From NCBI GenBank assembly GCA_023246355.1, contig JAHFIQ010000001.1, forward strand, positions 350,247-414,246: DNA of 64,000 nt, in the 5' to 3' direction. This document shows, piece by piece, positions 1 to 15,369 of the stretch. The position numbers and the translations under genes are program-made. Within the stretch, counting starts at the first letter, position 1. Every line of letters begins with the position of its first letter. This DNA comes from Candidatus Uhrbacteria bacterium (GTDB lineage Bacteria > Patescibacteriota > Patescibacteriia > UBA9934 > GWF2-40-263). Below the pieces are notes generated by a model that was given only the letters and a program-made list of their open reading frames with translations, searched no databases and was not told the DNA's origin.

Positions 1-23
1 TCTCATCGGTCTCTGGTATCGCG

Positions 24-587
24 GTGAATGACTACATTGTCCTTATTCAGGATCGCGGTGTCAGTCAAGTCTCAGCCATGGGTAAGGTCACGAGTATTGG
101 CGGCTCAACACTCACAGTCGACTCACTCACAAACAGTGGCACAGCACCTTCGATCGACGGAACGAATGACTACGTCTATGTCCTGAGCGGGGCCACCGTT
201 TCCTATGGAACGCTCAGTGACTCATCCGTGAGCACAGCGATCATTTCATTCGAGGTTTCAGCGGACAGTGCAAGTGGCTATGTCATTCAGATGAATGATG
301 ATGGCAATCTCAGATCAAGCTCGAGCGATGTTGATGATGTGAGTGACGGGACGGTCTCGGAGGGTTCAGAAGAATTTGGTGCTCGTTCATCAGACGCCAC
401 GCTAACCAGTTCAACGTTCGACACAGCAGATTCTGCTATCACAACGACCAGACAGGACGTTGTCACCAGAGGTTCAGTCACGATGTCAGATCGAAGTTTC
501 GTCACACTCAAGGCCTCGATCAGCACTTCGACATCGGCTGGCTCCTACGGAAATGTGATCTCTTTCATTGCGTCAGGAAATTTCTAG
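24..587 (+). CDS. Hypothetical Ser/Thr/Asp-rich protein; the frame stays open to the window edge, so it may be the C-terminal part of a larger protein
   Basis: ORF with GTG at 24 and no in-frame stop upstream to position 3; low-complexity S/T/D-rich composition with no Trp; sits at the head of a surface-protein cluster. Confidence 0.35.
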   Translation: MNDYIVLIQDRGVSQVSAMGKVTSIGGSTLTVDSLTNSGTAPSIDGTNDYVYVLSGATVSYGTLSDSSVSTAIISFEVSADSASGYVIQMNDDGNLRSSSSDVDDVSDGTVSEGSEEFGARSSDATLTSSTFDTADSAITTTRQDVVTRGSVTMSDRSFVTLKASISTSTSAGSYGNVISFIASGNF

Positions 588-590
588 ACT

Positions 591-1511
591 ATGAAAAGAC
601 TGCAACCATTCTTGATCAGCCTTTTCACGATGCTTCTCATTCCATCGGTTGCTTCTGCTGTTTCTGTTGCACCAACAAATCTTGAACTCACAGCTGAGCG
701 TGGTCAAACCATTTCCTCCAGCATCACTGTCCTGAATACACAAGCCTCCGATCAAGAATATTTCGTAGATCTCATGAGTTTTAAACCAAAGGACGATTCT
801 GGTACACCAGAATTTTTTTCTTCAGACGACTTCGCAAATGATTTAACAGGTTGGATACTATTTGACAGCAAGTCTTACATTGTTCCAGCTCTTTCTTCCT
901 CCGAAATTCCATTCCAAGTTGTTGTTCCAGATGATGTTCCATCTGGTGGCTATTACGCTGCCGTAACAGTTTCACCCGCACCAGCAGATGTTGTTGCTGC
1001 TAATGGGGCGATCATTGAAGCAAAAACAGCTGTACTCGTGCTACTGACCGTGGAAGGCGAGACGCAAGAAGATCTTGAGCTGTTGGATTTTGCTAGCACG
1101 GGTGGAGCTTTCGATCTCCCGCGACGTTCATTTCAGTTCCGATTACAGAATCAAGGCAATGTTCATGTCACACCGGTTGGAAACATCAAACTGACAGGTT
1201 TGTTTGGCCAAACGATTCTTGACCTTGATGCAAACAAAGATGAAGGTCGAGTGCTTCCAGCATCGACACGGATGTTTGCTGTGACGTCCAGCGATGAATC
1301 AACAAGTTGGTACGACACCGTCGCTTTTCAGCTCAGTCACCTCGCGATTGGTCCGGTCACAGCCACACTCGATCTCACATACGGAGAAAGTGGAGCGATT
1401 CAATCCTCACTTTCATTTTGGGTATTTCCCTGGCAGCTTCTTGTCACGCTCGTGGGCTTGCTGATCGTCTTGTGCGTTGGGTATCGATTCCTTAGACGAA
1501 AACGCTTGTAA
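591..1511 (+). CDS. Cell-surface protein with N-terminal signal peptide and C-terminal transmembrane anchor plus basic tail
   Basis: N-terminus MKRLQPFLISLFTMLLIPSVASA is a typical signal peptide; C-terminus LLVTLVGLLIVLCVGYRFLRRKRL is a TM helix followed by positive residues; beta-rich middle. The architecture is reminiscent of DUF916/CscA-type anchored surface proteins (from memory, unverified). Confidence 0.6.
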   Translation: MKRLQPFLISLFTMLLIPSVASAVSVAPTNLELTAERGQTISSSITVLNTQASDQEYFVDLMSFKPKDDSGTPEFFSSDDFANDLTGWILFDSKSYIVPALSSSEIPFQVVVPDDVPSGGYYAAVTVSPAPADVVAANGAIIEAKTAVLVLLTVEGETQEDLELLDFASTGGAFDLPRRSFQFRLQNQGNVHVTPVGNIKLTGLFGQTILDLDANKDEGRVLPASTRMFAVTSSDESTSWYDTVAFQLSHLAIGPVTATLDLTYGESGAIQSSLSFWVFPWQLLVTLVGLLIVLCVGYRFLRRKRL

Positions 1512-4500
1512 AAAAATCTGTGTGTTTCTATTTAGAAGGCTCATTCAAACTCTCACACTAGCCATCGTGACTTTCACGATGTCTGCTGTGGTTGTTTCAA
1601 CAGCCAACGCGGCAACGATTACCGGAGTGAACGACTACCCAACCACGCTCCAGTCGTCCCAAGCTGCCAATCACACCGTGCTCTTTACAACACCAACAGG
1701 TGCAGCACTTGGCTCCACGATCACGCTTTCGTTTTCCACGCCGTTTGATACATCCACGATTACGGAAGACGATGTGGATGTGGCAGATGATGGAGTTGAT
1801 CTCACGACAGCTGCGACATGTGCAGGAACGGAACAGGCTTCTGTTTCTATCGCATCAGACGTTGTCACCATCACGATTTGTGCAGGTGATGGCGGCGCGA
1901 TTGCTGCCGCGTCTCAGATCACCATTGAGATCGGAACAAATGCCACTTCATCAGGAACAGGTTCAAATCGCATCACCAATCCGACTTCCACTGGAACCTA
2001 TTTCCTGAGCGTGGCTGGTACGTTTGGCGATGCTGGATCGATTGCGCTTCCCATTGCAGGAGATGATTCTGTATCCGTGACCGCTGATGTGGCTTCTCGC
2101 TCCAGTGGAACAGGAACAGGAGGCGGATCCTCGCCAACATCAGACACAACCGCTCCCACGATCAGCAACATCGTGGTGAGCAATGTGACGGAAACAAGCG
2201 CGACTATCACTTGGACCACAGATGAATCGTCCACCAGCTCGGTGAGCTATGGGATAACCAGCGACGCTGATGACTCGACGAGTTCCGATAGTTCATCCAC
2301 GACGTCCCACTCCACCACTCTGACAGGTCTTACCGCTGGGGAGACGTATTACTTTACGGTGAGCTCAACCGATAGCAGTGGTAACAGCGCGACTTCATCT
2401 GTTCAGTCATTCACAACGCTCGACGATACTGGTCCAGTGATTTCAAATGTGGAAGTCGTGAACATCACAACCACTTCTGCAACAGTCACCTGGACAACAG
2501 ATGAAGCCGCTGACAGTACCGTTTCCTACGGTGAGACCACGAGCTACGATTCATCAGAATCTGATAGCAGTCTTGTTACGTCGCATTCCATCACTCTGAC
2601 AGATCTCACTCCTGGGACCACGTACGACTTTCAAGTGCTGTCCTCAGATTTTTCTGGAAACCAATCGTACACAGATAACGACACATTTGAGACAGACGAA
2701 GACGGGACACCGACAAATGTTTCAGATCTCGCCGCAGATGCAGGAGACGAAACGATCGTTCTGACTTGGACAAATCCTGACGATGAAGATTTGGCTGGGG
2801 TTCTCATCCTTGTGTGCGTCAACGAATATCCAGACGGACCAAACGACGAAGATTGCACAGAGGTCGATGCGGGACTTGCTGAGTCTTACACACTCACAGG
2901 TCTCACAAACGGAACAACGTATTACATTGGTGTGTTCGCTTACGATGATGCAGGGCAATTTGCTTCTGGCGCTCTTGTGACAGCTGTCCCAAGTGCTTCA
3001 GAAAATGAGGTGCCCTCCGAAGAGACAACGGAGGCAGAAGAGGAACCTGGTACAGAAGAGCCAGGTGACGAAGAGACATCTGTTCCAGATTCCGGAACAG
3101 GTGAAGAAACAACTCCAGGTGAGGAACCCTCATCCGGAGAAGATCTTACGACTGGAGAGGCGTCAGAGGAACCTACCTCCTTGGGTGCGGAGGATGGGAC
3201 TTTGAGTGATGCCGATATCCAGTACTTTGTGGAAGAAGAATCACTTGAGCTGACCACGGACACCTCTGTGGTCGAAGTGCTTTCCGAAAGCACTGTGCTT
3301 ATTTCGATTCCCTCCTCGGAAATTTCAGATGACGCCACCTCTGTCTTGGTGACGATCGGTTCTGAAACATACCTCATGGTGTTCAATGAGGAGTCCGGTT
3401 CCTATGAAGCAGAAGTCATGCTTTCCGACGCGGACGGTGTGTACACACTGACCGTGACTGTCGCCTCAGGCGATGGGTCGGAGTCTGTTTCTTCATACCT
3501 GTACATCGTCAATCCAGGCGATGTCTACCAGGTCGTCGATGATGAAGAAGCAGCCGTGGCCGATGCAACAGTAACACTCTATGAAGTGGTAGATGGTGAG
3601 CTGATCGTTTGGGATGGTTCCCCGTACGGTCAGGAGAATCCCACTCCCACAGCGGCAGATGGTACGTTCGCTTGGTATGTTCCAAACGGAACATACGTCG
3701 TGGTCGTGACGGCTGAGGGGTTTGAAACAGCACAAACCTCACAGCTCGTAATCGATAACGGCATTGTGAATCCTAGGATTCTTCTGACGGCCCTGGCGGT
3801 GCCTGAGGAAGAACAAGGAACAGCTCTTGAAGAAGGAGAGACCACCTCCCTTATTCAAAACGTTCTCTCTGTCTCCTCGGTTGAGGCCTTGCAAGAGGCG
3901 CTCTCTCAACTGCGAGACATTCCAGGTGTAGAAACGGCCGCTGAGATTTCGACGCCCGTGCTTGCCCTTGGTGCAGGTGTGAGCTTGGTCGTGCTGTCTC
4001 TGGCCTACGATTTCCTGTCTCTTCTTCAATATCTTTTTACAGCGCCTCTCCTATTTTTGTGGCGCCGCAAGAGGAAAGGATACGGAGTCGTCTACAACGC
4101 GATTGGCAAAAAACCAATCGACTTGGCTCTGGTACGTCTGTACCAGCTGACAAACGGTGAGGAGGCGACGCCACGCTCCGGCCGCCTCCTCCAAAGTCGT
4201 GTTACCGACCGCGAAGGTCGCTACTACTTTCTTGTGTCCCCTGGACGGTATCGGTTGAGTGTCACCAAATCTGGGTTCGAGTTTCCCTCGGAGTATTTGA
4301 AAGGTGAGAACACCGATGGTCAGTACTTGGATGTGTATCATGGCGAAGTGATTGAGGTGAAGGATAAGGATGCGGTCATCACGGCGAATATCCCGATGGA
4401 TCCGTCACAAGCAGATGCGTATCAAACACCATCGGCTGTTGTGTGGCACAAACGTCTGCGCAAGCTTCAGCACAGCTTCTCAGCTCTCGGGATTGTGGCA

Positions 4501-4887
4501 GCACTTGCCTTTGCGATCATCCGTCCAACGCCTTGGTCAATCACCATGGTCTTCATCCAACTCGCGGTGTATCTGCTGGTGCGACGACTTGCCAAACCAT
4601 ACAAGCCCATGAACTGGGGAATCGTGTATGACAAAAACACGGGTCGGCCGTTAGCTCGTGTTGTCGCTCGTATCTTTGAGCCCAAGTACAACAAATTGCT
4701 CGAGACACAAGTGACAGATAGCAAAGGACGGTATGCGTTCTTGCTGGGACCAAACGAATACTTTGCGGTGTTTCAAAAAGATGGCTATCAGACCGCAGAA
4801 GTTCGACCGATCGATTACTCGGCACATGAAGAACCAGCGAACTTCGGTGAGACCGTTGCCCTTGAACTCAATCAAACCGCAACCTGA
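1477..4887 (+). CDS. Large multidomain envelope protein: signal peptide, 3 fibronectin-III-like repeats, acidic E/P-rich linker, two carboxypeptidase-regulatory-like (Cna-B-like) beta-sandwich domains interleaved with TM helices
   Basis: RR-containing signal peptide ...RRLIQTLTLAIVTFTMSAVVVSTANA (true start probably GTG 1519 or ATG 1579, since 1477 overlaps the upstream gene by 35 nt). Three repeats end in ATITWTT / ATVTWTT / IVLTWTN with a conserved Y..GLT.G.TYYF core. Segments DGTFAWYVPNGTYVVVVTAEGFE and REGRYYFLVSPGRYRLSVTKSGFE match the CarboxypepD_reg pattern. Several hydrophobic helices in the C-terminal third. Confidence 0.75.
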   Translation: MGIDSLDENACKKICVFLFRRLIQTLTLAIVTFTMSAVVVSTANAATITGVNDYPTTLQSSQAANHTVLFTTPTGAALGSTITLSFSTPFDTSTITEDDVDVADDGVDLTTAATCAGTEQASVSIASDVVTITICAGDGGAIAAASQITIEIGTNATSSGTGSNRITNPTSTGTYFLSVAGTFGDAGSIALPIAGDDSVSVTADVASRSSGTGTGGGSSPTSDTTAPTISNIVVSNVTETSATITWTTDESSTSSVSYGITSDADDSTSSDSSSTTSHSTTLTGLTAGETYYFTVSSTDSSGNSATSSVQSFTTLDDTGPVISNVEVVNITTTSATVTWTTDEAADSTVSYGETTSYDSSESDSSLVTSHSITLTDLTPGTTYDFQVLSSDFSGNQSYTDNDTFETDEDGTPTNVSDLAADAGDETIVLTWTNPDDEDLAGVLILVCVNEYPDGPNDEDCTEVDAGLAESYTLTGLTNGTTYYIGVFAYDDAGQFASGALVTAVPSASENEVPSEETTEAEEEPGTEEPGDEETSVPDSGTGEETTPGEEPSSGEDLTTGEASEEPTSLGAEDGTLSDADIQYFVEEESLELTTDTSVVEVLSESTVLISIPSSEISDDATSVLVTIGSETYLMVFNEESGSYEAEVMLSDADGVYTLTVTVASGDGSESVSSYLYIVNPGDVYQVVDDEEAAVADATVTLYEVVDGELIVWDGSPYGQENPTPTAADGTFAWYVPNGTYVVVVTAEGFETAQTSQLVIDNGIVNPRILLTALAVPEEEQGTALEEGETTSLIQNVLSVSSVEALQEALSQLRDIPGVETAAEISTPVLALGAGVSLVVLSLAYDFLSLLQYLFTAPLLFLWRRKRKGYGVVYNAIGKKPIDLALVRLYQLTNGEEATPRSGRLLQSRVTDREGRYYFLVSPGRYRLSVTKSGFEFPSEYLKGENTDGQYLDVYHGEVIEVKDKDAVITANIPMDPSQADAYQTPSAVVWHKRLRKLQHSFSALGIVAALAFAIIRPTPWSITMVFIQLAVYLLVRRLAKPYKPMNWGIVYDKNTGRPLARVVARIFEPKYNKLLETQVTDSKGRYAFLLGPNEYFAVFQKDGYQTAEVRPIDYSAHEEPANFGETVALELNQTAT
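2150..2990 (+). repeat. Three tandem FN3-like coding repeats of ~270-280 bp inside the 1136-aa protein
   Basis: Repeated protein motif (A/G)P(T/V)ISN(I/V)(V/E)V.N(V/I)T.TSAT(I/V)TWTTDE...SYG...Y.......H(S)(T/I)(T)LT(G/D)L(T)(A/P)G.TY(Y/D)F. Confidence 0.6.
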
Positions 4888-4899
4888 TCGCCCACATCT

Positions 4900-7800
4900 A
4901 TGTTCTTATCAGGGAGGAAACAATCTCTCGCCCTTGTCCTCATCACCCTCGTGTCGATGATGAGCTTTGTGTTTTCTTCCCAAGCCGCTGCGCCGACCAA
5001 CATCGTGACCTATCAAGGCCGATTGTTGAATTCAAATTCTGTCCCGGTTTCTGACACGAGCCTTTCCATGAAATTTTTCTTCTATACGGCTGTCACGGGT
5101 GGAACCTGTGTCTGGTCTAACTCTTCCGCGACATGCAACAGCAACACACCAGCTTCCACCACCGCTCGAACCGTCACACTCACCTCAGGACTCTTCACCC
5201 AAAATTTGGGCGACACGGGAGATTCCTTCGCCGCCATTTCCGATTCGATTTTTGCAGATAACTCAACCTTGTTTTTAGAAGTGATCGTTGGCAGTGAAAC
5301 GCTTTCCCCTCGTCGCCGACTCACCGCGGCTCCTTATGCTCTGAACGCACAGACATTGGATGGGATTGATTCTGGATCTTTTCTGCGCGACACAGGGGAT
5401 ACAGCCACGGGGGATTATGACCTGACCGGAGCCACTCTCTCGGGAGGTTCTCCGATTGTGTTGGAAGGTGCCTCCGCAAATAGCTTTGAAACAACACTGG
5501 CTCTGACAGATCCAACAGCTGATCGAACGATCACCTTTCAAAATGGCTCTGGCACGGTCGCGTTTTTGACAGACGTCACGGGTGGAGGTTTATGGGAGTC
5601 AGGCACATTTGTCTACGAAGATGATTCTGCTGTTGTGGTCGGCGCTGATGCCGCTTTCACGTATGCCAGTGGTGGTGTGGGAGATTTGCGTGTGGCAGAT
5701 CAGCTGGAAGTGCTTGATGATATTTTCGTTGATAATGATTTGGTTGTCGGCGCCTCGACGTCATCTACAGAAACGATTGCAAACAGTTCATTTAGTTTGG
5801 GCGGCAACGACTTCTTTGCGGCAAGTGATGTGGGTGTGGAAGGAAACGTCTATATCGACGGCGCGATTGATTTGGTTGGCACGGCGACGGTCGGTGACCT
5901 TGCCTGTACGGATTGTTTGGACTTTGCAGAACTTGTCGATGCCTTGTCTTTGGATGCCTCGACGTCCATAGCACTTGACGGAAGTGAAACGTTTTCGATT
6001 ACCAACGGCGGTACAGGCAATGTCATCACCAACCTCTCTTCCACGGGAGACTTTGTGATTCAAGATAATGGCGCGGCCATTCTCACGGTTGCGGACGATG
6101 ATGTTCTTACCTATTCAACGGACTTAACAACGACCAGTGCGATTGGATTCACAGGCAACAGTCTTACCACAGGAAGTCTGCTAAACCTTTCTGCCACAGG
6201 TCTCACAACCGGAACAGCTTTGACTGTGACGGCCAGCAATGTGAGCACAGCCAACTCGGCTTCAGTGCTGAATCGTTTCGTGTTGACCAACAGTCAATCG
6301 ACCATCGCCAATACAGGGATCACCGGTTTGTCTGTTGGGTTTACCAATGCCCCCTCCATTGCTGGAAACACAGAGCGAGTTGTGTCCATTAGCAACGAGT
6401 CCACAACCAACACAACAGATAACCTCGTTACAGCGTTGCTTGCTTTGGATAATGCTGATACATCGACGACGGGATCTACGGTTGTCACAGATGCGATCTC
6501 GATCGCCGTCTCAGGAGCGATTGCCAACGGCATCGTGGACGCGATCGACGCCTCGGATGCCAACATTACCAACGCCCTCAACATCGGAACCAACACGATT
6601 CTTGGTACGACCGGTGTGATTGATTTTAGCAGTTTTGATGTTGATGGGAGTGGGAATGTCACGGCGAATGATTTCATCTGCACGGACTGTGTGGACTTTA
6701 CCGAGATGATCGATGCCATGTCTTTGGATGCTTCAACATCGATCGCGATGGACGGTTCTGAAACCTACACCCTCACCAACGGCGGTACAGGCAATGTCGT
6801 CACCAACCTCTCCTCTACGGGAGACTTTGTTATCCAGGATAACGGTGCGGCCGTTCTCACCGTTGCCGATAATGATGTCTTTACCTATACAACGGATTTG
6901 ACGACCACCAGTGCGATGACACTTACAGGCAACAGCCTCACCACCGGGAGTCTTTTGAATCTGTCATCAACAGCTCTTACAACGGGTTCAGCCCTGAGTG
7001 TTGTGGCGACCAATGCCAACACAGCCAATTCCTCCACACGTTTGAGTCAATTCTCGTTTACGAACTCTCAAGCAACCGTTGCAAATGGAGATATTGCCGG
7101 ACTGTTTCTTAATTTTACGAACAGTCCATCGATTGGTGGCAACACCGAGCGTGCCATGTCGATTGTGAATGCTCCAACATCCAACACAACGGATAATGCC
7201 GTGGCTGCGCTTCTGTCTTTGGATAACGCTGATACGTCAGGAACAGGTTCTACGGTTATTACCGATGCCCTGTCGATCACGGTGTCAGGAGCGATTTCAG
7301 ATGGGATCGTGGACGCGATTGATGCTTCCGATAGCAACATCACTAACGCTCTCAATGTTGGTGCCAACACGATTACAGGAACGACCGCGGTGATTGACTT
7401 CAACAGCTTTGATGTGGATAACAGCGGTATTGTCACGGCGAGTGACTACGTGTGCACGGACTGTATCGACTTTGCTGAGCTCATCGATTCCATGTCTCTG
7501 GACGCGTCTACCTCTATTGCGATGGATGGCTCAGAAAACTTCACCGTGACCAATGGTGGAACAGGAAACATGGTTGTGAACCTGTCATCGACAGGCGACT
7601 TTGTGTTGCAGGATTCTGGATCACCCTTTTTCTCTATCAATGACAACAAAGTTATTTCTTATTCCACAGACCTTGCAACAAGCAATGCTGTGGCTCTCAC
7701 CGGCAACAGTCTTACCACCGCCAACCTGTTGACCCTGACAAGCACCGCACTCACGACAGGATCAGCGCTCTCAGTTACCGCCTCAAATACCAATACAGCC

Positions 7801-10800
7801 AATTCGATTTCGAGCATGGCCGTTTTTGCCCTTACCAACGCTCAATCAACAGTAGCCAATGATGATGTCAATGGTTTGGTTGTGAGGTTCACCAACAATC
7901 CGTCGGTTGCTGGAAACAATGAGCGCGCCATGGTGGTTACAAATCTTGCGACGAGCAATACCACAGACAACGCTGTCCAAGCTCTTCTCAATTTGGATAA
8001 TGGAGATACCAGCGCCACAGGTTCCACGGTTGTCACAAACGCCTTGATCGTCTCTGTTTCAGGATCGATTGCCGACGGCATTATTGATGCAGTCGATGCT
8101 TCTGACTCCAATATCACCAATGCTCTGAACATCGGATCAAACATCATTACAGGAACCACCGGTGTGATTGATTTCAATAGCTTTGATGTTGGACCGGTTG
8201 CTAGTGCCAATAGTGGGACGACAACTTCCATTGTTGATGTTGGATACGTCACTCCGGTGGATACCTCTGGAACAAATATTCACCAAGGCATCACTATTGA
8301 CATGGATATCGGTAACTCAACAGGCGGTACCAATAGTGTGAATGCACTTGAACTCGAGGGAATGACTGGAGATCCGGAGGTTGCAAACGTTCATGCGATT
8401 GATATCGGGGCTCTCACAGGATCTGCCGCGACAAATGAAACCGCTCTCCAAATTGGAACAGGGTGGGATGCGGATATTGCCTTCTTAAATGCCACTCAGG
8501 CAAGTCTGCGTATCCCAAATGGTTCACGACTTCAGTTTCAAGACTCGACGTCAACGGAAATTTTGACGCTTCAGGACGTTTCAAATTCTTTAAATCACAA
8601 CTTGGCCATTGATGCTGATACAGGGCTGTCATTTGATAGCAATGCGGATTCCGATGCAGACATCACGACTCCTACAGCCGAAGCTCTGCGCATCACGCCA
8701 GGTGGAGTTGGAGATGTTATTTTTACGATCGATGCAGACAGCAATGTCCAGATGACCGCAGGTGTTGCGCCGGGTGTGGACATGCTCTCGCTCTCAAACA
8801 GTGGTTTTGCAACAACCACAACGGATGTGAACGGGCTGCAAATTGATTTCAGTTCAACAGGTGCTGCCGCTCAGGCACTGTTTGTTGAAACGACGTATGT
8901 TGGTGGTGCGACAGATGCGCTTAACTTTGACGGTATTTTTATCGGAGATATCAATCCAACCAATGCCGCGGGGACGGACACGGTTGCGGGAATCCACATT
9001 GGAACCATCACAGATCCAGGCGCGAACATTACCTCCACTGGTCTTCGTATTGACGCAGGATATGATGCTAACATTGCCATCATTGACTCGTCATCTGTGT
9101 TCGATATCACCAACGGTGGCACGCTGGCGTTTCGAGACACCTCAAATACGATCATGCTCCTGACAGATAACGGTTCCGATGGGGTGCTGAGCATCAATAA
9201 CATTTCAACCGCTGATCCTGCGGTCAATGTGTACGACGTGGCTGTGAATACCACGATCGATATTGGTGGTGTGACGAACGATTCTGCCAACAGCGTGAAC
9301 ATTGCGACCAACGCGACCAGCGGAGACACGATTTCGATTGGAAACACGGCCGGCGGAACCAACGTCACGATCACGGCCGGTGGAACGATTGATTTGGAAG
9401 GGTCCGTGACAGCGGATTTGGCAGCCATTGGTGCCACACAGTTTGCGCTCTGTCACACCAATTCTGACACCAACGACGAACCGATCGGTGACTGTTCGGG
9501 TGCGCCAACCGCTGACTATGCGGAGCAATATCCTGTGGAGACTGGCATTTCGTATGGCGACATTGTGGTGCCTGGGGCGCGGGAAGTGACAACCACTGAA
9601 GGCCAGACCATTACACAACTTGTGAAATCTTCTGAGCCGTATCAAGGTCCCATCGCTGGAATCGTTTCCAATAACTACGGAGACTTTACCTCGGCTGGGT
9701 ACAACATTGAGGCGGGTGACAATCCCATGCCCATTGCCCTTGTCGGACGTGTTCCTGTGAAGGTGACAAACGAAGGCGGTGCCATTCAAGTAGGTGACTA
9801 TCTCACAACTTCTTCCACAGCTGGTCGTGCCATGAAAGCCAGTAAAGTCGGTCGCGTGATCGGCATGGCTTTGCAGAATTGGGATGGCGTGAGCGATACA
9901 ATCATGGTGCAGGTGAACAACTCTTGGTACATGGGAGAGGTGATTGGAACCGACGGTGTCTCAACGCTTGTCACGGACAATGTTGTTGTGTCCTCATTTG
10001 CAACCGCAACCGCTGAGGCACCGACCTTTGACTCCTACGGGCTCTCACTGCGAGGTTCTGTTTGGAATGGATCAGAAGCAGAAGCCGTGGAGATGATGAT
10101 GAAGAACGTTGTTGATAGTGAAGATGAGTATCGACTCAGCATTCGCAATACATCCGAAACCGAAGTTGCCTACATCACCGACGAAGGGACCATGAAGATT
10201 GCTGGTGACATGATCGTTGGTGGAAATTTGTATCCGTCGGATCGTGGAGTTCCTCAAACCGACAAATATATTTACTACGATGGATCAGAAGGGTCAGCTG
10301 GGGACTTCATGCGCACCAATGCCAAAGGTTGGTCCACGGGATCTTACGACTTTGCCGAAATGTTCCCGTCGTCTGAGACACTTGAGGCTGGTGAAGTAGT
10401 CGCGTTCTCCGGATCAGGCCATGACGTTATTCGTGCAACAGGTGCACAGGGAGAGCAACTTGCTGGTATCGTTTCCACACGTCCAGGATTTTTGGCTGGC
10501 GAGAACATCGAAGGTTCCTATCCAATCGCGCTTGCTGGCCGTGTCCCAACAAAGGTGAGTGAAGAGAATGGTGCGATCGCGATTGGCGATCCTCTGACAT
10601 CAAGTGCAACAACAGGCCTGGCCGTGAAGGCGAGTGAGAGTGGTCAGATTGTTGGTTATGCCTTGGAGGCGTATGACGGATCTCAGTCTGATGATCTGAT
10701 CCTCGTCTATGTGAATATCGGGTACTGGCAAGATGATACGGTGGTGCAAAACACAGCCTCAGAAGTTTCAGGCAATACAAATTTCTCTGCACTCAACATG

Positions 10801-11439
10801 ACCGGCAACATCTCAATGAACTCTTATGAGATAAACGGGATTGGGAAGCTCACCGGCATGGGAGATTCGTGGTCACTCGCATCCGACGGAACGCTCACAA
10901 CTTCCGGTTTGTTGAAGACGGTCATCGATTCTTATCAAAATGAAAAAGTCGAGACGGTCGCGGTGACCTCTCCTGAAGTGATGATTACACTCACTGGAAC
11001 GGCCGTTCTTGAAAACGATCAACTCGAAATTCGATTTGAAGATGTGATTCCTGAATACAATGATGTTATTTCTGCTGACGCGCCGATTCGCGTGTTTGTG
11101 ACGCCACATGGACCTGTTTCCTTGTACGTCTCTGAGTCTGACCAAAATCATTTCGTGGTGACGCGGTTCCAAGGTGACTTGGATGTTGAGTTCGATTGGA
11201 TGGTGAGCGCGTATCGAAAAGGATATGAACCTGAGGAGGAGGTAGAAGAGGTGGATGAGGTAGACATGGTAGACCCAGGCTTCAGCATGGGTGCGACTGA
11301 AGAAACTGAATCATCTGACACAGAATCAGAAATGACAGCCGATTCTGCATCTCCGGAGAGTCCGGACACAACCATTGTTGATCAAGTGATTGAATCTGAT
11401 GGCGGCGCAACAGCCGAGCCCGAGACACAATCACCCTGA
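4900..11439 (+). CDS. Giant (2179 aa) secreted repeat protein, putative adhesin or fibre-like surface protein with acidic C-terminal tail
   Basis: Signal peptide MFLSGRKQSLALVLITLVSMMSFVFSSQAAA. N-terminal head contains LNAQTLDGIDSGSFLRDTGD, reminiscent of phage tail-fibre/collagen-like 'TLDG.DSS.F' motifs (from memory). Three ~258-aa tandem repeats (CTDC.DF.E..D..SLDASTSIA.DGSE...TNGGTGN..TNLSSTGDFV.QD...). C-terminal duplicated ~75-aa domain (AGIVS...PIAL.GRVP.KV..E.GAI..GD.LT.S.T.G.A.KAS..G..G.AL...DG). Glu/Asp-rich tail. Confidence 0.8.
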   Translation: MFLSGRKQSLALVLITLVSMMSFVFSSQAAAPTNIVTYQGRLLNSNSVPVSDTSLSMKFFFYTAVTGGTCVWSNSSATCNSNTPASTTARTVTLTSGLFTQNLGDTGDSFAAISDSIFADNSTLFLEVIVGSETLSPRRRLTAAPYALNAQTLDGIDSGSFLRDTGDTATGDYDLTGATLSGGSPIVLEGASANSFETTLALTDPTADRTITFQNGSGTVAFLTDVTGGGLWESGTFVYEDDSAVVVGADAAFTYASGGVGDLRVADQLEVLDDIFVDNDLVVGASTSSTETIANSSFSLGGNDFFAASDVGVEGNVYIDGAIDLVGTATVGDLACTDCLDFAELVDALSLDASTSIALDGSETFSITNGGTGNVITNLSSTGDFVIQDNGAAILTVADDDVLTYSTDLTTTSAIGFTGNSLTTGSLLNLSATGLTTGTALTVTASNVSTANSASVLNRFVLTNSQSTIANTGITGLSVGFTNAPSIAGNTERVVSISNESTTNTTDNLVTALLALDNADTSTTGSTVVTDAISIAVSGAIANGIVDAIDASDANITNALNIGTNTILGTTGVIDFSSFDVDGSGNVTANDFICTDCVDFTEMIDAMSLDASTSIAMDGSETYTLTNGGTGNVVTNLSSTGDFVIQDNGAAVLTVADNDVFTYTTDLTTTSAMTLTGNSLTTGSLLNLSSTALTTGSALSVVATNANTANSSTRLSQFSFTNSQATVANGDIAGLFLNFTNSPSIGGNTERAMSIVNAPTSNTTDNAVAALLSLDNADTSGTGSTVITDALSITVSGAISDGIVDAIDASDSNITNALNVGANTITGTTAVIDFNSFDVDNSGIVTASDYVCTDCIDFAELIDSMSLDASTSIAMDGSENFTVTNGGTGNMVVNLSSTGDFVLQDSGSPFFSINDNKVISYSTDLATSNAVALTGNSLTTANLLTLTSTALTTGSALSVTASNTNTANSISSMAVFALTNAQSTVANDDVNGLVVRFTNNPSVAGNNERAMVVTNLATSNTTDNAVQALLNLDNGDTSATGSTVVTNALIVSVSGSIADGIIDAVDASDSNITNALNIGSNIITGTTGVIDFNSFDVGPVASANSGTTTSIVDVGYVTPVDTSGTNIHQGITIDMDIGNSTGGTNSVNALELEGMTGDPEVANVHAIDIGALTGSAATNETALQIGTGWDADIAFLNATQASLRIPNGSRLQFQDSTSTEILTLQDVSNSLNHNLAIDADTGLSFDSNADSDADITTPTAEALRITPGGVGDVIFTIDADSNVQMTAGVAPGVDMLSLSNSGFATTTTDVNGLQIDFSSTGAAAQALFVETTYVGGATDALNFDGIFIGDINPTNAAGTDTVAGIHIGTITDPGANITSTGLRIDAGYDANIAIIDSSSVFDITNGGTLAFRDTSNTIMLLTDNGSDGVLSINNISTADPAVNVYDVAVNTTIDIGGVTNDSANSVNIATNATSGDTISIGNTAGGTNVTITAGGTIDLEGSVTADLAAIGATQFALCHTNSDTNDEPIGDCSGAPTADYAEQYPVETGISYGDIVVPGAREVTTTEGQTITQLVKSSEPYQGPIAGIVSNNYGDFTSAGYNIEAGDNPMPIALVGRVPVKVTNEGGAIQVGDYLTTSSTAGRAMKASKVGRVIGMALQNWDGVSDTIMVQVNNSWYMGEVIGTDGVSTLVTDNVVVSSFATATAEAPTFDSYGLSLRGSVWNGSEAEAVEMMMKNVVDSEDEYRLSIRNTSETEVAYITDEGTMKIAGDMIVGGNLYPSDRGVPQTDKYIYYDGSEGSAGDFMRTNAKGWSTGSYDFAEMFPSSETLEAGEVVAFSGSGHDVIRATGAQGEQLAGIVSTRPGFLAGENIEGSYPIALAGRVPTKVSEENGAIAIGDPLTSSATTGLAVKASESGQIVGYALEAYDGSQSDDLILVYVNIGYWQDDTVVQNTASEVSGNTNFSALNMTGNISMNSYEINGIGKLTGMGDSWSLASDGTLTTSGLLKTVIDSYQNEKVETVAVTSPEVMITLTGTAVLENDQLEIRFEDVIPEYNDVISADAPIRVFVTPHGPVSLYVSESDQNHFVVTRFQGDLDVEFDWMVSAYRKGYEPEEEVEEVDEVDMVDPGFSMGATEETESSDTESEMTADSASPESPDTTIVDQVIESDGGATAEPETQSP
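5905..8228 (+). repeat. 3 tandem coding repeats of ~774 bp within the giant gene
   Basis: Unit starts (tgcacggactgt / tgtacggattgt encoding CTDC) at 5905, 6679 and 7454; the period is constant at 774-775 bp with high protein-level identity. Confidence 0.8.
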
Positions 11440-14089: not shown

Positions 14090-14165
14090 GGGCCGTTAGC
14101 GCAGTTGGTAGCGCGTTTCCATGGCATGGAAAAGGTCATCGGTTCGAATCCGATACGGTCCACCA
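14090..14165 (+). tRNA. tRNA-Ala(GGC)
   Basis: Cloverleaf by eye: acceptor gggccgt/acggtcc with a G3:U70 wobble pair (the Ala identity element), D-arm gcgc-agttggtag-gcgc, anticodon stem tttcc/ggaaa with loop atGGCat, T-arm atcgg-ttcgaat-ccgat, discriminator A, encoded CCA. Confidence 0.85.
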
Positions 14166-14280: not shown

Positions 14281-15369
14281 ATGCCGCAATTTCCTCAGAG
14301 GTTCCCCATGTCTGCAACCCAGGCAGAGTCCGATTCGCGTCCGCCCTTCGTGCGTCCCAGCTCGATTGGCGACATCGTTCTTGGCATGTCCTTCACCGTC
14401 GAGGAGGAAGGCGAAGCCGTCACCCTGACCTTCGAGCCGCAAGCGCAGAAGGCGTTCTCGCGCTCGAGTTTTCAGGAGGTCTTCGGCAACTGTGGAGTCG
14501 TGCTGGTCAACGGCAAGTACCGACTGCTTGTCAGTGAGCAGGAGGTTCTCGCCTTCGAGGCTCCTGAGGGTCTGGAAAACAAGGACCGCCTGATCGATGG
14601 CCAGTTCGGACAGGTCGTCGAAGGGTTCTTCCGCCAGGTCGTCGAGGGCTACCAGGGATTCCCCAGTGACGAGATGCTCGAGCAGCTCGTGGGTCGCTCA
14701 ATCGATGCTGCGTTCATCGCGCTTACGGGGGACGATCCGCTCAAGGAGTCCCTGCGGCTTCCCACGCGCCAGCAGCTCATCGACATGAAGGTCCAGGGCG
14801 GCTGTGCCTCGTGCGATTTCACGGATCCGATGGCGGGCGTCATGGCAGCGCTCAGGGGCGAGCCGCCTTCCAAGTCCTCGTTCTTGCCCGGTGTCATCGA
14901 GGTGTCGGGCATCCGTCTGCGCGCGATCGAGAACGGTGATGCGCTCGACCTGGTGGTGGGATATCTCGACCACGAGAACGTGTTCGAAGACTACTTCCAC
15001 AGTCACCTGGCCGCGCTCATGCGGGAACGTCTTCCGCAGGCCGTCGACGCACAGGTCCGCCGTCAGCTCGTAGGAATCGAGCTCACGCGCCGCATCATCA
15101 ACCGGGTCTCCGAGGCCACGTACGCCCGCTTCGAGATCGATCCGGACGAAGTGCAGCGGATGGCCGATGAGGAAGAACAGAAGGTCCGGGATGCTCTTGC
15201 TGCCAGGCGCGAAGCCGCCTCCCAGAGGCGTGGTGGCCTTCGGTTCATGACCCTCGGTCCCGATGGGTTCCAGGATCTGGACGGCAATTCGCTGGAAGGC
15301 GATCCGTTCGCTTTCGAAGAAGGATCGGAGGAAACGGAGAACGAGCTCGACGCTCCCACGCAGGAGTAG
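14281..15369 (+). CDS. Hypothetical protein (acidic C-terminus), high-GC gene directly downstream of tRNA-Ala
   Basis: Long ORF with strong GC3 codon bias (GTC/GGC/CTC/GAG codons), unlike neighbouring genes. More likely start is ATG 14308 (MSATQ) preceded by agagg. No recognisable domain. Confidence 0.55.
   Translation: MPQFPQRFPMSATQAESDSRPPFVRPSSIGDIVLGMSFTVEEEGEAVTLTFEPQAQKAFSRSSFQEVFGNCGVVLVNGKYRLLVSEQEVLAFEAPEGLENKDRLIDGQFGQVVEGFFRQVVEGYQGFPSDEMLEQLVGRSIDAAFIALTGDDPLKESLRLPTRQQLIDMKVQGGCASCDFTDPMAGVMAALRGEPPSKSSFLPGVIEVSGIRLRAIENGDALDLVVGYLDHENVFEDYFHSHLAALMRERLPQAVDAQVRRQLVGIELTRRIINRVSEATYARFEIDPDEVQRMADEEEQKVRDALAARREAASQRRGGLRFMTLGPDGFQDLDGNSLEGDPFAFEEGSEETENELDAPTQE

What the first reader, a model, noticed from the sequence alone, without database searches (positions are those of the whole stretch)
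4900..11439. 2179-aa giant surface protein with a tail-fibre-like head motif, 3 x 774-bp tandem repeats and a duplicated C-terminal domain
This is one of the largest genes in the window.
- After a signal peptide, the head contains LNAQTLDGIDSGSFLRDTGD, which resembles the TLDG.DSS.F motif I recall from phage tail fibres and collagen-like proteins.
- Three near-identical 258-aa units follow, starting at 5905, 6679 and 7454, each beginning CTDC.DF.E..D..SLDAS.
- A long Thr/Ser/Gly/Asn-rich beta region follows.
- Two copies of a ~75-aa domain (GIVS...PIALxGRVPxKV..E.GAI..GD.LT.S.T.G.A.KAS) come next.
- The protein ends in an EEEVEEVDEVD acidic tail.

Perfect-period repeats are hotspots for copy-number variation and thus for antigenic or adhesion variation. 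Together with the neighbouring 1136-aa FN3 protein, the anchored surface protein and the Wzy-like/TPR gene, this forms a cell-envelope locus plausibly involved in host or partner attachment.
Basis: partly seen in the sequence, partly recalled or inferred. Interest (0 to 1): 0.55.

Follow-up and report, generated by a model that had tools for sequence, protein, structure and literature searches.

The report
Phage-tail-fibre-like surface fibre of Uhrbacteria
This 2179-residue gene of an uncultured Uhrbacteria (CPR) bacterium most likely encodes a secreted fibre built from phage tail-fibre parts, probably with a self-cleaving assembly module, and it sits in a conserved operon that resembles the recently described CPR "Pam" pilus system, which makes it a plausible but untested host-attachment organelle.

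Summary
The ORF (4900-11439, 2179 aa) and its features are real. The three 774-bp units are not near-identical. They share 64-73% nt and 63-74% aa identity, dS is saturated and dN/dS is 0.10-0.18. They are old modules, neither an assembly artefact nor a slippage hotspot.

The "75-aa duplicated domain" is a ~140-150-aa domain present twice. Each copy starts with D-x-A-E (D1539, D1817). This aligns with the autocleavage junction S691|D692..E695 of the phi29 gp12 C-terminal auto-chaperone (MEROPS G2). The motif is kept in 54/54 and 51/52 orthologs.

The head segment, the G2-like domains and the last domain all have phage-tail relatives. The signal peptide is followed by an Ig-like domain whose distant relatives start S74-terminated fibres, the architecture of Bdellovibrio MAT fibres.

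The gene is single-copy in 130 or more Uhrbacteria/Patescibacteria species genomes. Both ends are conserved and the shaft is mosaic.

It always lies in one five-gene cassette:
- a PamT-like pilin
- a DUF916/PamC/D-like membrane-anchored protein
- an FnIII membrane protein
- the fibre
- a polytopic TPR protein

Best reading (about 0.55): a self-processing, probably trimeric adhesin fibre of a Pam-like surface system. This is a new variant of known kinds. Cleavage, trimerisation and function are inferred, not shown.

The parts
1..587 (+). 3' part of the first cassette gene (312 aa in full; its start lies upstream of the window): PamT/Pam-pilin-like secreted protein
   Evidence: The full gene was read from L001:4750-5685. 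It matches NCBIfam NF058579 CPR_pilus_PamT at E 1e-12 and NF058581 CPR_Pam_pilin_C at E 8e-8, both below the curated cut-offs. Of 25 orthologs, 25 hit the PamT model and 14 hit the pilin_C model. The gene is present upstream of the fibre in 60/62 loci.
591..1511 (+). 306-aa protein with a signal peptide, a beta-rich body and a C-terminal TM helix plus RRKRL: DUF916/WxL-interacting-protein-like. This is the same architecture as the membrane-anchored PamC/PamD chaperones
   Evidence: The ortholog profile A6 hits PDB 9i25/9i1y EfmWxLIP1 at E 3e-9. The TM segment at aa 273 comes from a hydropathy scan. The PamC/D description is in the Pam paper. No Pfam or NCBIfam family was assigned.
1477..4887 (+). 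FnIII x3 + CarboxypepD_reg-like domains + TM helices (1102-1136 aa): PamR-like membrane anchor candidate
   Evidence: Pfam fn3 at E 6e-23 and CarboxypepD_reg at 3e-16. TM-like segments. A signal peptide (...VSTANA|ATITG) appears only if translation starts upstream of the ATG at 1579. Present in 60/62 loci. No sequence match to any Pam family was found.
4900..4986 (+). Fibre gene: signal peptide (aa 1-29)
   Evidence: Read from the sequence. Orthologs keep ...AAxPxNI right after the hydrophobic stretch. SignalP was not available.
4987..5379 (+). Conserved N-terminal Ig-like beta-sandwich domain (aa 30-160), with one Cys pair (C70, C79): presumed cell-proximal anchor
   Evidence: Conserved at the N-terminus in 103/120 homologs. 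The AF2 model has pLDDT around 90. There is no PDB relative by sequence or fold. The HMM finds 29,317 representative proteins at E<=1e-3. These include S74-terminated ~1000-aa proteins that carry it right after their signal peptide.
5380..5904 (+). Head/shaft segment with a phage-fibre repeat motif (aa 161-335; core motif aa 186-222 = nt 5455-5565)
   Evidence: tblastn against phages gives Pelagibacter phage HTVC008M at E 6e-13, a Kolga 'tail fiber' and a Mosig S74 protein. PHROG phrog_8215 (tail) matches at E 2e-6.
5905..8226 (+). Three tandem 774-nt (258-aa) shaft modules (5905-6678, 6679-7452, 7453-8226). Each starts CTDCxDF and ends in an EF-hand-like loop
   Evidence: The AF2 confidence for the one module modelled (aa 336-600) is low, so no fold is assigned.
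8227..9513 (+). Distal shaft (aa 1110-1538). It is shared with some orthologs and ends in a Cys pair (C1518, C1532) and ...GAPTA just before the predicted cleavage site
   Evidence: The conservation map and module comparison are.
9514..9969 (+). G2-like auto-chaperone domain, copy 1 (aa 1539-1690), starting DYAEQYP. Predicted autocleavage is between A1538 and D1539
   Evidence: D, A and E are invariant in 46 sequences, and D-x-A-E is kept in 54/54 orthologs. Profile A2 hits PDB 3gqh (phi29 gp12 D4) at E 9.7e-5, aligned from its first residue D692. hhalign gives 90% probability, E 1.5e-6. AF2 pLDDT is above 90.
9970..10347 (+). Conserved beta-rich linker (aa 1691-1816)
   Evidence: Conserved in the alignments. 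AF2 pLDDT is 50-74.
10348..10779 (+). G2-like auto-chaperone domain, copy 2 (aa 1817-1960), starting DFAEMFP
   Evidence: 31% identical to copy 1, E 5e-24. Pfam Peptidase_G2 scores 16.2 bits, E 0.007, which is sub-threshold. DFAE is kept in 51/52 orthologs. PHROG phrog_673 matches at 2e-11 and phrog_6427 at 4e-8. It also hits a PA5oct virion structural protein.
10780..11274 (+). Conserved C-terminal beta-sandwich domain (aa 1961-2125)
   Evidence: AF2 pLDDT is around 90 for aa ~2030-2110. PHROG phrog_6616 'tail protein' matches at E 8e-8. Ortholog P0043 keeps this domain behind a Peptidase_S74 domain instead of the G2 pair.
11275..11439 (+). Acidic, disordered tail (aa 2126-2179: 14 D/E, no K/R) and the stop codon
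11627..14035 (+). Last cassette gene: ~11-TM polytopic membrane protein with C-terminal TPR repeats (802 aa)
   Evidence: Pfam finds TPR families only. No Wzy_C match appeared in the window protein or among the 25 most widely matched Pfam families of its 21 orthologs. The gene lies downstream of the fibre in 54 loci.

Best explanation
The gene encodes a Sec-exported, phage-tail-fibre-like surface fibre of an Uhrbacteria (CPR/Patescibacteria) cell.

Proposed build:
- a signal peptide
- a conserved Ig-like N-domain that holds the fibre to the cell, presumably to products of the same operon
- a long, Lys-poor, acidic, mosaic shaft, here including three old 258-aa modules, that differs between species and probably carries the binding specificity
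- a conserved ~640-aa C-terminal assembly module

The assembly module contains two phi29-gp12-type (MEROPS G2) auto-chaperone domains. By analogy these register and trimerise the shaft. They would then cut themselves off at A1538|D1539, and perhaps again at Y1816|D1817. That would leave a ~152-kDa mature fibre whose variable end is distal.

The fibre is one component of a five-gene, Uhrbacteria-wide cassette that looks like a divergent Pam (donor-strand-exchange) pilus or surface-complex locus: a pilin-like protein, a membrane-anchored DUF916/PamC/D-like protein, an FnIII membrane anchor, the fibre, and a TPR membrane protein.

Shown: the anatomy, the homologies, the conservation pattern and the synteny.
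Inferred: secretion, trimerisation, autocleavage, anchoring through the N-domain and the adhesive function.
For: G2-like domains:
- Profile A2 versus PDB gives phi29 gp12 D4 (3gqh) at E 9.7e-5. The match starts exactly at the post-cleavage residue D692 (DFAEYFES). The Dpo31 D4 chaperone scores E 1e-3. Entry 3suc, which spans the junction, reads DFAQ, as an E695Q variant would.
- hhalign gives 90% probability, E 1.5e-6.
- Foldseek against BFVD gives 90 hits at E<=1e-3, including 'Preneck appendage protein' at TMt 0.63, E 7e-9.
- Pfam Peptidase_G2 is above threshold in orthologs P0038 and P0054.
- D-x-A-E is kept in 54/54 (copy 1) and 51/52 (copy 2) orthologs.
- The gp12 and Dpo31 C-terminal domains are cleaved auto-chaperones (papers PMC3357383, PMC13317679).

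Chaperone modules are interchangeable in the family:
- Ortholog P0043 carries Peptidase_S74 instead of the G2 pair.

Conservation logic matches fibres that carry an intramolecular chaperone:
- The N-domain and the C-terminal module are conserved and the shaft is mosaic.
- Ortholog shafts carry End_tail_spike, YadA_head and beta-propellers.

Composition break at the predicted cut:
- There are 2 Lys in 1508 residues upstream versus 14 in 587 downstream.
- K_up < K_down holds in 52/52 orthologs.

Extracytoplasmic signature:
- All 10 Cys lie in five short-range pairs.

Phage relatives of other modules:
- head
- CTD

N-domain superfamily:
- It includes proteins with a signal peptide, the N-domain and a C-terminal S74 domain. 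That is the architecture of Bdellovibrio MAT fibres (PMC10769870).

Synteny and distribution:
-.

Pam link:
-.
- The Pam paper notes a 'tail fibre-like protein' that co-localises with pam operons.
Against: - The window protein itself is below the Pfam G2 threshold (16 versus 25 bits).
- Similarity to gp12 D4 covers only its first ~55 residues plus one strand.
- Foldseek against PDB did not return gp12 D4. It returned beta-tulip decoration proteins and pyocin/MAT fibre tips at weak E-values.
- gp12 D4 binds ATP (cited), which an exported protein would lack.
- Discarding 640 aa is costly for a reduced genome. A conserved C-terminal domain with phage-tail relatives could equally be a functional tip.
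- AF2 gave low confidence for the shaft. Trimer state could not be modelled.
- The N-domain shows no similarity to the Pam-like pilin, and its partner is unknown.
- All Pam-family matches are below the curated cut-offs.
- There are no expression, proteomic or imaging data.
Confidence: 0.55

Rival explanations
1. Same fibre, but the G2-like domains are not cleaved. They have become permanent beta-tulip/knob domains. Together with the last beta-sandwich domain they form a conserved distal tip that binds a conserved ligand. The variable shaft would then be a spacer that diversifies under phage or immune-like pressure.
For: - The C-terminal module is the best-conserved part of the protein.
- Its second half resembles phage decoration and head-fibre base domains (Phage_cement_2 at E 0.003; phi29 gp8.5; Foldseek PDB hits to decoration proteins, pyocin and Bd2439 fibre tips and H-type lectins).
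- The CTD matches a phage tail protein family.
- There is no ATP outside the cell.
- P22-type auto-chaperone domains stay in the mature protein.
Against: - The exact cleavage-motif residues D and E are near-invariant in both copies across ~50 species. That is hard to explain for a purely structural domain.
- The Lys/Arg and T/S/N composition switches sharply at D1539 in 52/52 orthologs.
- An ortholog replaces the pair by a bona fide self-cleaving S74 domain.
Confidence: 0.2
2. It is the S-layer or another structural envelope protein of Uhrbacteria rather than an adhesin. In this reading it is a universal, single-copy, acidic, Lys-poor, Thr/Ser-rich, Ca-binding beta-rich protein with a conserved anchoring domain and a fast-evolving exposed part.
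For: - It is single-copy in nearly every Uhrbacteria genome, at a fixed core-genome position.
- Its composition and pI of about 4 fit.
- EF-hand-like loops occur in each unit.
- Length and sequence vary extremely between species, 331-3497 aa.
Against: - There are no SLH or other S-layer anchoring or lattice domains.
- Three modules have phage tail-fibre/tailspike relatives, and there is an intramolecular-chaperone motif.
- Ortholog shafts carry adhesin or enzymatic fibre modules (YadA_head, End_tail_spike).
- The neighbours are pilus-like, not S-layer secretion genes.
Confidence: 0.12
3. It is a remnant or cargo of a prophage or tailocin (a real phage tail fibre), not a cellular organelle.
For: Phage relatives exist for the head motif, the G2-like domains and the CTD.
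Against: - There are no phage genes in the 64-kb window. The flanks are RmuC, S20, pol III delta, YchF, S6, SSB, RecA, FtsK and RpoBC.
- The same chromosomal position and the same non-phage neighbours recur in about 60 species.
- It has a Sec signal peptide, which virion tail fibres are not expected to carry (general knowledge, not tested here).
Confidence: 0.02
4. Assembly artefact or pseudogene: the repeat number or the reading frame is wrong.
For: None beyond the presence of long repeats.
Against: - The identical protein lies on 7 contigs from independent assemblies.
- The units are 27-36% diverged.
- dN/dS is 0.10-0.18.
- The frame is intact over 6.5 kb.
Confidence: 0.01

Closest known systems
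Bacillus phage phi29 gp12 pre-neck appendage (tailspike), C-terminal auto-chaperone domain D4 (MEROPS G2, Pfam PF11962); also Dpo31 D4 of the marine podovirus Carin-1
   Same: - The domain starts with D-[FY]-A-E, aligned to the S691|D692..E695 junction.
- It continues ...GD/E.V....G(V/I)(V/I)S...GF..G and then ..vGL.GQ/R(V/I).V.V.
- It lies C-terminal to a fibre.
- Fold matches to predicted 'preneck appendage' domains.
   Different: - It is present twice in tandem, with a 126-aa linker.
- It is followed by another conserved domain and an acidic tail.
- It sits in a Sec-exported cellular protein rather than a cytoplasmically assembled virion protein.
- The second half of the domain resembles beta-tulip decoration or head-fibre domains more than gp12 D4.
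- Cleavage and ATP dependence were not tested.
Bdellovibrio bacteriovorus MAT (mosaic adhesive trimer) fibres (PMC10769870)
   Same: - A signal peptide, then a conserved ~130-aa beta-rich N-domain with no PDB homologue.
- Then a mosaic fibre with phage tail-fibre ancestry.
- Then either a self-cleaving chaperone or another tip.
- It is a cellular protein of a bacterium that lives on other bacteria.
- Distant relatives of the Uhrbacteria N-domain head S74-terminated ~1000-aa proteins.
   Different: - There is one gene per genome here, against 21 paralogs in Bdellovibrio.
- The chaperone is G2-type (x2), not S74.
- The protein is much longer.
- It is embedded in a fixed pilus-like operon.
- Homology of the N-domains was not tested directly, because no MAT sequence was at hand.
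Pam pilus operon of CPR bacteria and its co-localised 'tail fibre-like protein' (Troman et al. 2026, bioRxiv 10.64898/2026.03.03.709456)
   Same: - The neighbours match the Pam parts list in kind: a PamT/Pam-pilin-like protein (NCBIfam hits), a membrane-anchored chaperone-like protein with a C-terminal TM helix, and an FnIII-containing membrane protein.
- The paper reports a tail fibre-like gene that consistently accompanies pam operons.
   Different: - All matches are below the curated cut-offs.
- Only one pilin-like gene was seen in the cassette.
- The FnIII protein is far larger than PamR and has no sequence match to it.
- Uhrbacteria are not named in the parts of the paper read (a term search found no mention); the text names mainly Saccharimonadia and Microgenomatia.
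- The fibre has no detectable pilin domain.
- Relatedness to the M. amalyticus fibre-like protein was not tested.
Fibre/baseplate proteins of marine phages (Pelagibacter phages HTVC008M, Kolga, Mosig; cyanophage SS120-1)
   Same: They share the repeat motif (V/L)(F/L)EG(A/S)(T/S)A(N/D)SFETTL..TDPTADRTIT(F/L)(P/Q)N.(S/T)GT(V/L)A, at up to 61% identity over 62 aa.
   Different: The motif occurs once here but many times in the phage proteins. The rest of the proteins are unrelated.
WxL/Csc cell-surface complex clusters of Firmicutes (DUF916 WxL-interacting proteins)
   Same: The 306-aa neighbour is homologous to EfmWxLIP1 (E 3e-9). It has the same plan: a signal peptide, a beta domain and a C-terminal TM helix.
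   Different: No WxL-domain proteins were detected in the cassette, and the fibre is unrelated to WxL proteins.

Membership tests
Peptidase G2 / phi29 gp12-type C-terminal auto-chaperone (PF11962) | Sequence match to the family model | tested here: inconclusive
   The window protein scores 16.2 bits (E 0.007) against a cut-off of 25, at aa ~1816-1868. Orthologs P0038 (30.5 bits) and P0054 (29.0 bits) pass. A family profile of the domain hits gp12 D4 in PDB at E 9.7e-5. hhalign gives 90% probability.
Peptidase G2 / phi29 gp12-type C-terminal auto-chaperone (PF11962) | Asp at the first residue of the domain and Glu at +3 (gp12 D692/E695), at the autocleavage junction | tested here: met
   DYAE is at 1539-1542 and DFAE at 1817-1820. 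Both align to DFAE of 3gqh residue 1. The motif is conserved in 54/54 and 51/52 orthologs.
Peptidase G2 / phi29 gp12-type C-terminal auto-chaperone (PF11962) | Fold of the domain | tested here: inconclusive
Peptidase G2 / phi29 gp12-type C-terminal auto-chaperone (PF11962) | Autoproteolytic release after trimerisation | not testable with these tools
   This needs biochemistry or proteomics.
Peptidase S74 intramolecular chaperone | S74 domain with the SDxxxK motif at the C-terminus | tested here: not met
   There is no PF13884 hit in the window protein. It is present in ortholog P0043 (43.6 bits) and in distant N-domain relatives P0252 and P0253.
MAT-like cellular fibres (Bdellovibrio) | Signal peptide directly followed by a conserved ~130-aa beta-rich N-domain | tested here: met
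   This is a match of architecture only. Homology to the Bdellovibrio N-domain was not tested.
MAT-like cellular fibres (Bdellovibrio) | Mosaic, module-swapped shaft and tip between family members | tested here: met
   
MAT-like cellular fibres (Bdellovibrio) | Intertwined homotrimer | not testable with these tools
   Only monomer AF2 was available, and the shaft has low confidence.
Pam pilus system (CPR) | Pam-type pilin encoded in the operon | tested here: inconclusive
   The upstream 312-aa protein hits NF058579 (48 bits, cut-off 240) and NF058581 (32.5 bits, cut-off 55). Of 25 orthologs, 25 hit the former.
Pam pilus system (CPR) | Membrane-anchored PapD-like chaperone (C-terminal TM helix) | tested here: inconclusive
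   The architecture is met. Homology was shown to DUF916 WxLIP (E 3e-9), not to PapD/FimC or to PamC/D directly.
Pam pilus system (CPR) | The protein in question carries a pilin-type (truncated Ig, donor-strand) domain | tested here: not met
   hhalign of the fibre N-domain against the pilin-like neighbour gives probability 0.1%. The fibre is therefore filed as an associated component, not as a Pam pilin.
S-layer proteins | SLH or another known S-layer anchoring or lattice domain | tested here: not met
   There are no such Pfam or NCBIfam hits.

The most novel reading that the evidence does not exclude
Uhrbacteria build a chimeric organelle. A chaperone/donor-strand (Pam-like) surface system, or its FnIII membrane stalk, would present a domesticated phage tail fibre as its distal, host-range-determining element. 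The fibre would mature outside the cell by two successive ATP-independent self-cleavages of tandem G2-type auto-chaperones. The species-specific mosaic shaft would then be the main determinant of which host cell each Uhrbacteria lineage can attach to.
Probability: 0.2. Interest if true: 0.8.

Novelty: new variant of a known kind. Interest (0 to 1): 0.55.

Why it matters
How uncultured CPR/Patescibacteria recognise and hold on to their hosts is largely unknown outside Saccharibacteria, and Uhrbacteria have no cultured member.

- This locus gives a concrete candidate. It is single-copy, present in essentially every Uhrbacteria genome and hypervariable in the expected place.
- It makes sharp biochemical predictions: cleavage at A1538|D1539 and at Y1816|D1817, a trimer, and an N-domain partner encoded next door.
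- It links two recent discoveries, Bdellovibrio MAT fibres and CPR Pam pili.
- It suggests what the unexplained 'tail fibre-like protein' next to pam operons may be.
- It would extend Pam-like loci to a class not named in the parts of the Pam paper that were read.
- It would also be the first cellular, exported use of a G2-type auto-chaperone that I am aware of. That last point rests on my own knowledge and not on a systematic search.

Tried and rejected
- Whole-protein searches of Pfam, NCBIfam, PHROGs and PDB sequences found nothing useful. Splitting the protein into modules and using ortholog profiles was needed.
- TRF missed the repeats because the period exceeds 500.
- Foldseek of the N-terminal model against PDB gave only generic Ig-like noise at E>0.1.
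- AF2 of aa 28-600 did not resolve the repeat-unit fold.
- A homolog search with the N-domain alone returned only short fragments.
- The pattern scan of genome contigs was too specific to reach beyond Patescibacteria.
- The N-domain profile against PDB gave no hit. tblastn of the N-domain against phages gave nothing significant.
- Cluster look-ups gave only 'hypothetical protein' names.
- The promoter/terminator scan showed nothing above the shuffle expectation.
- 'Wzy-like' was rejected for the TPR protein.
- The prophage and artefact readings were rejected (see rivals).
- Similarity between the fibre N-domain and the Pam-like pilin was rejected.
- A paper search for Uhrbacteria adhesins or giant proteins found nothing relevant.

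Full report
**1. Observation**

The ORF 4900..11439 (+) is real and encodes 2179 aa. It begins with a Sec-type signal sequence: R6 K7, a hydrophobic core at 9-25, and SQA|AAP. This rests on manual criteria, because SignalP was not available.

The quoted motif LNAQTLDGIDSGSFLRDTGD is at aa 148-167.

The repeat finder shows two families of three copies with exact 774-nt spacing. In protein terms the units start at aa 336, 594 and 852 (nt 5905, 6679, 7453), each with CTDCxDF.

The units are not near-identical:
- Identity is 73/64/65% nt and 74/63/66% aa.
- The longest shared in-register runs are 24, 17 and 12 nt.
- Synonymous sites are saturated (dS 1.2-2.6) and dN/dS is 0.10-0.18.
- Each unit is as far from its neighbours as from the single units of other species' orthologs, at 65-78%.

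So the units are old modules under purifying selection. They are neither a slippage or recombination hotspot nor an assembly risk. The identical protein is encoded on 7 contigs from independent sources.

The C-terminal duplication is real but larger than described. The alignment runs 232 aa at 31% identity, E 5e-24, starting at D1539 and D1817. The run EEEVEEVDEVD (2112-2122) is followed by 57 more residues; the Lys/Arg-free acidic tail is aa 2126-2179.

**2. What the modules are**

Whole-protein scans of Pfam, NCBIfam, PHROGs and PDB sequences were empty. Module-wise work was informative.

(a) The duplicated domain.
- In a 46-sequence alignment the D, A and E of 'DYAE' are invariant.
- A profile of both copies from diverse orthologs (A2) finds the phi29 gp12 pre-neck appendage auto-chaperone domain in PDB (3gqh, E 9.7e-5). 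The alignment starts at residue 1 of that crystallised fragment, DFAEYFES. In full-length gp12 (6qz9) this is S691|D692.
- Entry 3suc, which spans the junction, reads DFAQ, as an E695Q variant would.
- The D4 chaperone of tailspike Dpo31 also matches, at E 1e-3.
- hhalign against gp12 688-854 gives 90% probability, E 1.5e-6.
- Pfam Peptidase_G2 is sub-threshold in the window protein (16 bits) but above threshold in two orthologs.
- The AF2 model of aa 1520-2140 is confident for both copies and for the last domain. Against BFVD it gives 90 hits at E<=1e-3, among them 'Preneck appendage protein' models (TMt 0.61-0.63) and tail or baseplate proteins. Against PDB it gives only weak hits to beta-tulip decoration proteins, phi29 head fibre, and pyocin and Bdellovibrio fibre tips.
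- The literature read here confirms that the gp12 and Dpo31 C-terminal domains are auto-chaperones that are cleaved off.

(b) The head. tblastn against phages hits fibre, baseplate or S74 proteins of Pelagibacter and cyanophages. The shared element is IVLEGASANSFETTLALTDPTADRTITFQNGSGTVAF (aa 186-222; the best alignment spanning it is 61% identical over 62 aa). PHROG phrog_8215 (tail) matches at 2e-6.

(c) The last domain (aa 1961-2125) matches PHROG phrog_6616 'tail protein' at 8e-8.

(d) The N-domain (aa 30-160) is a confidently predicted Ig-like sandwich. It has no PDB relative by fold or sequence.

(e) The repeats and the distal shaft have no relatives outside the family, and their AF2 confidence is low.

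**3. The family**

The first homolog search returned 149 proteins of 1250-3700 aa. Those that carry an organism name are mostly Candidatus Uhrbacteria or other Patescibacteria, and every source name is 'hypothetical protein' or another non-functional label.

Only aa ~1-200 and ~1500-2130 are conserved. The middle is replaced wholesale between relatives.
- The closest ortholog (P0003, 1522 aa) has one 258-aa unit and lacks aa ~588-1261.
- P0002 and P0004 share only aa 1-170 and 1101-2179.
- Other orthologs carry End_tail_spike, YadA_head, a lactonase propeller or ORF_12_N in the shaft.
- P0043 has a Peptidase_S74 domain in place of the G2 pair but keeps the last domain.

A scan of one genome per species found 130 loci. 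All are in Uhrbacteria or Patescibacteria MAGs, and several carry placeholder 'Gammaproteobacteria' titles. The count is essentially one per genome.

Among 57 complete orthologs:
- Lengths run from 331 to 3497 aa, with a median of 1610.
- 52 have two G2-like domains.
- D-x-A-E is kept in 54/54 first copies and DFAE in 51/52 second copies.

An HMM of the N-domain finds 29,317 representative proteins at E<=1e-3, of which 147 are at E<=1e-30. Names retrieved at the edge of the visible list include Magasanikbacteria.

Walking out from a distant member showed the N-domain right after the signal peptide of ~950-1030-aa proteins that end in Peptidase_S74. It also appears in triplicate in propeller/TIG proteins. 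The first of these is the architecture described for Bdellovibrio MAT fibres.

**4. Context**

The window is ordinary chromosome: YchF, S6, SSB, RecA, FtsK, RpoB/C and tRNAs.

The fibre gene is the fourth of five co-directional genes that recur between rmuC and ychF:
- a 312-aa protein
- a 306-aa protein
- an FnIII protein of 800-1160 aa
- the fibre
- a ~790-aa polytopic TPR protein

In loci with enough flank:
- The 312-aa gene is found in 60/62.
- The FnIII gene is found in 60/62.
- The 306-aa gene is found in 39/62 at E<1e-8.
- The TPR gene is found in 54 loci.
- rmuC is found in 58 loci.

The 312-aa protein matches NCBIfam CPR_pilus_PamT (E 1e-12) and CPR_Pam_pilin_C (E 8e-8). These matches are below the cut-offs but consistent across 25/25 orthologs.

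The 306-aa protein has a signal peptide and a C-terminal TM helix. It is homologous to the DUF916 WxL-interacting protein EfmWxLIP1 at E 3e-9.

The FnIII protein has a signal peptide only in the longer ORF, and it has TM helices.

These match in kind the parts of the Pam pilus system of CPR bacteria: pilins, membrane-anchored PapD-like chaperones PamC/D, and the FnIII anchor PamR. Its authors also note an unstudied 'tail fibre-like protein' that always accompanies pam operons, and the text names mainly Saccharimonadia and Microgenomatia.

The fibre's N-domain is not detectably related to the pilin-like neighbour. The TPR protein has no Wzy_C signal among the Pfam families reported for it and its orthologs.

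**5. Mechanism proposed**

Shown:
- modular anatomy
- homology of three modules to phage tail proteins
- a conserved D-x-A-E pair at the start of each G2-like domain
- conserved ends with a mosaic middle
- fixed operon context

Two further observations fit a removable assembly module.
- Lys is almost absent from the presumed mature fibre (2 in 1508 residues) but normal after D1539 (14 in 587). This holds in 52/52 orthologs.
- All ten Cys form five short-range pairs, as expected outside the cytoplasm.

Inferred:
- Export is by Sec.
- The C-terminal module nucleates and registers a trimer.
- Autocleavage occurs at A1538|D1539, and possibly at Y1816|D1817. It would release fragments of 30 and 39 kDa and leave a 152-kDa acidic fibre.
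- The N-domain docks on an operon-encoded membrane component.
- The species-specific shaft binds a host or partner surface.

Weak points:
- Similarity to gp12 D4 is short.
- gp12 D4 binds ATP, and the need for ATP cannot be met outside the cell.
- The discarded module would be large.
- The reason for having two chaperone copies is unknown.
- The trimer state was not modelled.

**6. Rivals**

- A non-cleaved conserved tip made of knob domains: 0.2.
- An S-layer or other structural protein: 0.12.
- A prophage remnant: 0.02.
- An artefact: 0.01.

**7. Verdict**

The repeat-hotspot idea and the Wzy label are not supported.

The object is best described as a MAT-like, phage-derived cellular fibre. 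It has a tandem G2-type auto-chaperone module and lies in a Pam-like operon that is universal in Uhrbacteria. That makes it a new variant of known kinds, of moderate to good interest, with clear experiments to settle it.

Noticed in passing
window 1-587 (full gene: L001:4750-5685): The first gene of the cassette is a distant Pam-pilin/PamT-like protein with three SSSYxL-type motifs near its N-terminus. Uhrbacteria are not mentioned in the Pam paper (term search).
   Followed up: partly
window 591-1511: A 306-aa protein with a signal peptide and a C-terminal TM helix is homologous to the Enterococcus DUF916 WxL-interacting protein (PDB 9i25, E 3e-9). This links CPR Pam-type 'chaperones' with Firmicutes WxL/Csc surface-complex clusters.
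   Followed up: partly
window 1477-1600: The called ATG start (1579) of the FnIII gene removes its signal peptide (...LAIVTFTMSAVVVSTANA|ATITG). The true start is probably upstream and overlaps the end of the preceding gene (1511).
   Followed up: partly
window 6637-6690, 7411-7464 and 5890-5920: Each 258-aa unit ends in an EF-hand-like loop (DVDGSGNVTANDF; sub-threshold EF-hand/Dockerin Pfam hits) directly followed by CTDCxDF. The CxxCxDF motif also marks junctions between unrelated modules at irregular spacing in orthologs (e.g. P0009 at aa 592, 868, 1097, 1325, 1715). It may be a structural cap or a module-swapping joint.
   Followed up: partly
window 4987-9513 versus 9514-11274: There is a sharp compositional break at the predicted cleavage site. 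Lys is 0.13% upstream versus 2.4% downstream, and the same direction holds in 52/52 orthologs. The mature part would be nearly trypsin-proof.
   Followed up: yes
window 11627-14035: The ~11-TM + TPR protein is conserved downstream of the fibre in 54 loci. Its membrane part has no family assignment. Its role (glycosylation of the Ser/Thr-rich fibre? assembly?) is unknown.
   Followed up: partly
window 14090-14165 and 14281-15369: A tRNA-Ala(GGC) lies immediately after the cassette. It is followed by a ~353-362-aa acidic protein without any Pfam match, and a family-less gene of similar size occupies the same position before ychF in L002 (338 aa).
   Followed up: no
loci L007-L082: Dozens of GTDB species-representative MAGs titled 'uncultured Gammaproteobacteria bacterium' (TPA co-assemblies) carry this Uhrbacteria-type cassette. 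The titles look like placeholders or mislabels.
   Followed up: no
N-domain HMM (alignment A4); P0232, P0245, P0252, P0253: The fibre's N-domain belongs to a very large unannotated superfamily (29,317 representative clusters at E<=1e-3). It occurs singly before S74-terminated fibres and in triplicate before propeller/TIG or murein-endopeptidase (M74) proteins.
   Followed up: partly
L072 and L076 (same MAG, CAZCMI01): One genome has two copies of the fibre N-domain on different contigs, an exception to the one-per-genome rule.
   Followed up: no
window 16490-17665 (-): An N6/N4 DNA methyltransferase-like gene (UPF0020/N6_N4_Mtase) is conserved near the cassette in several loci.
   Followed up: no
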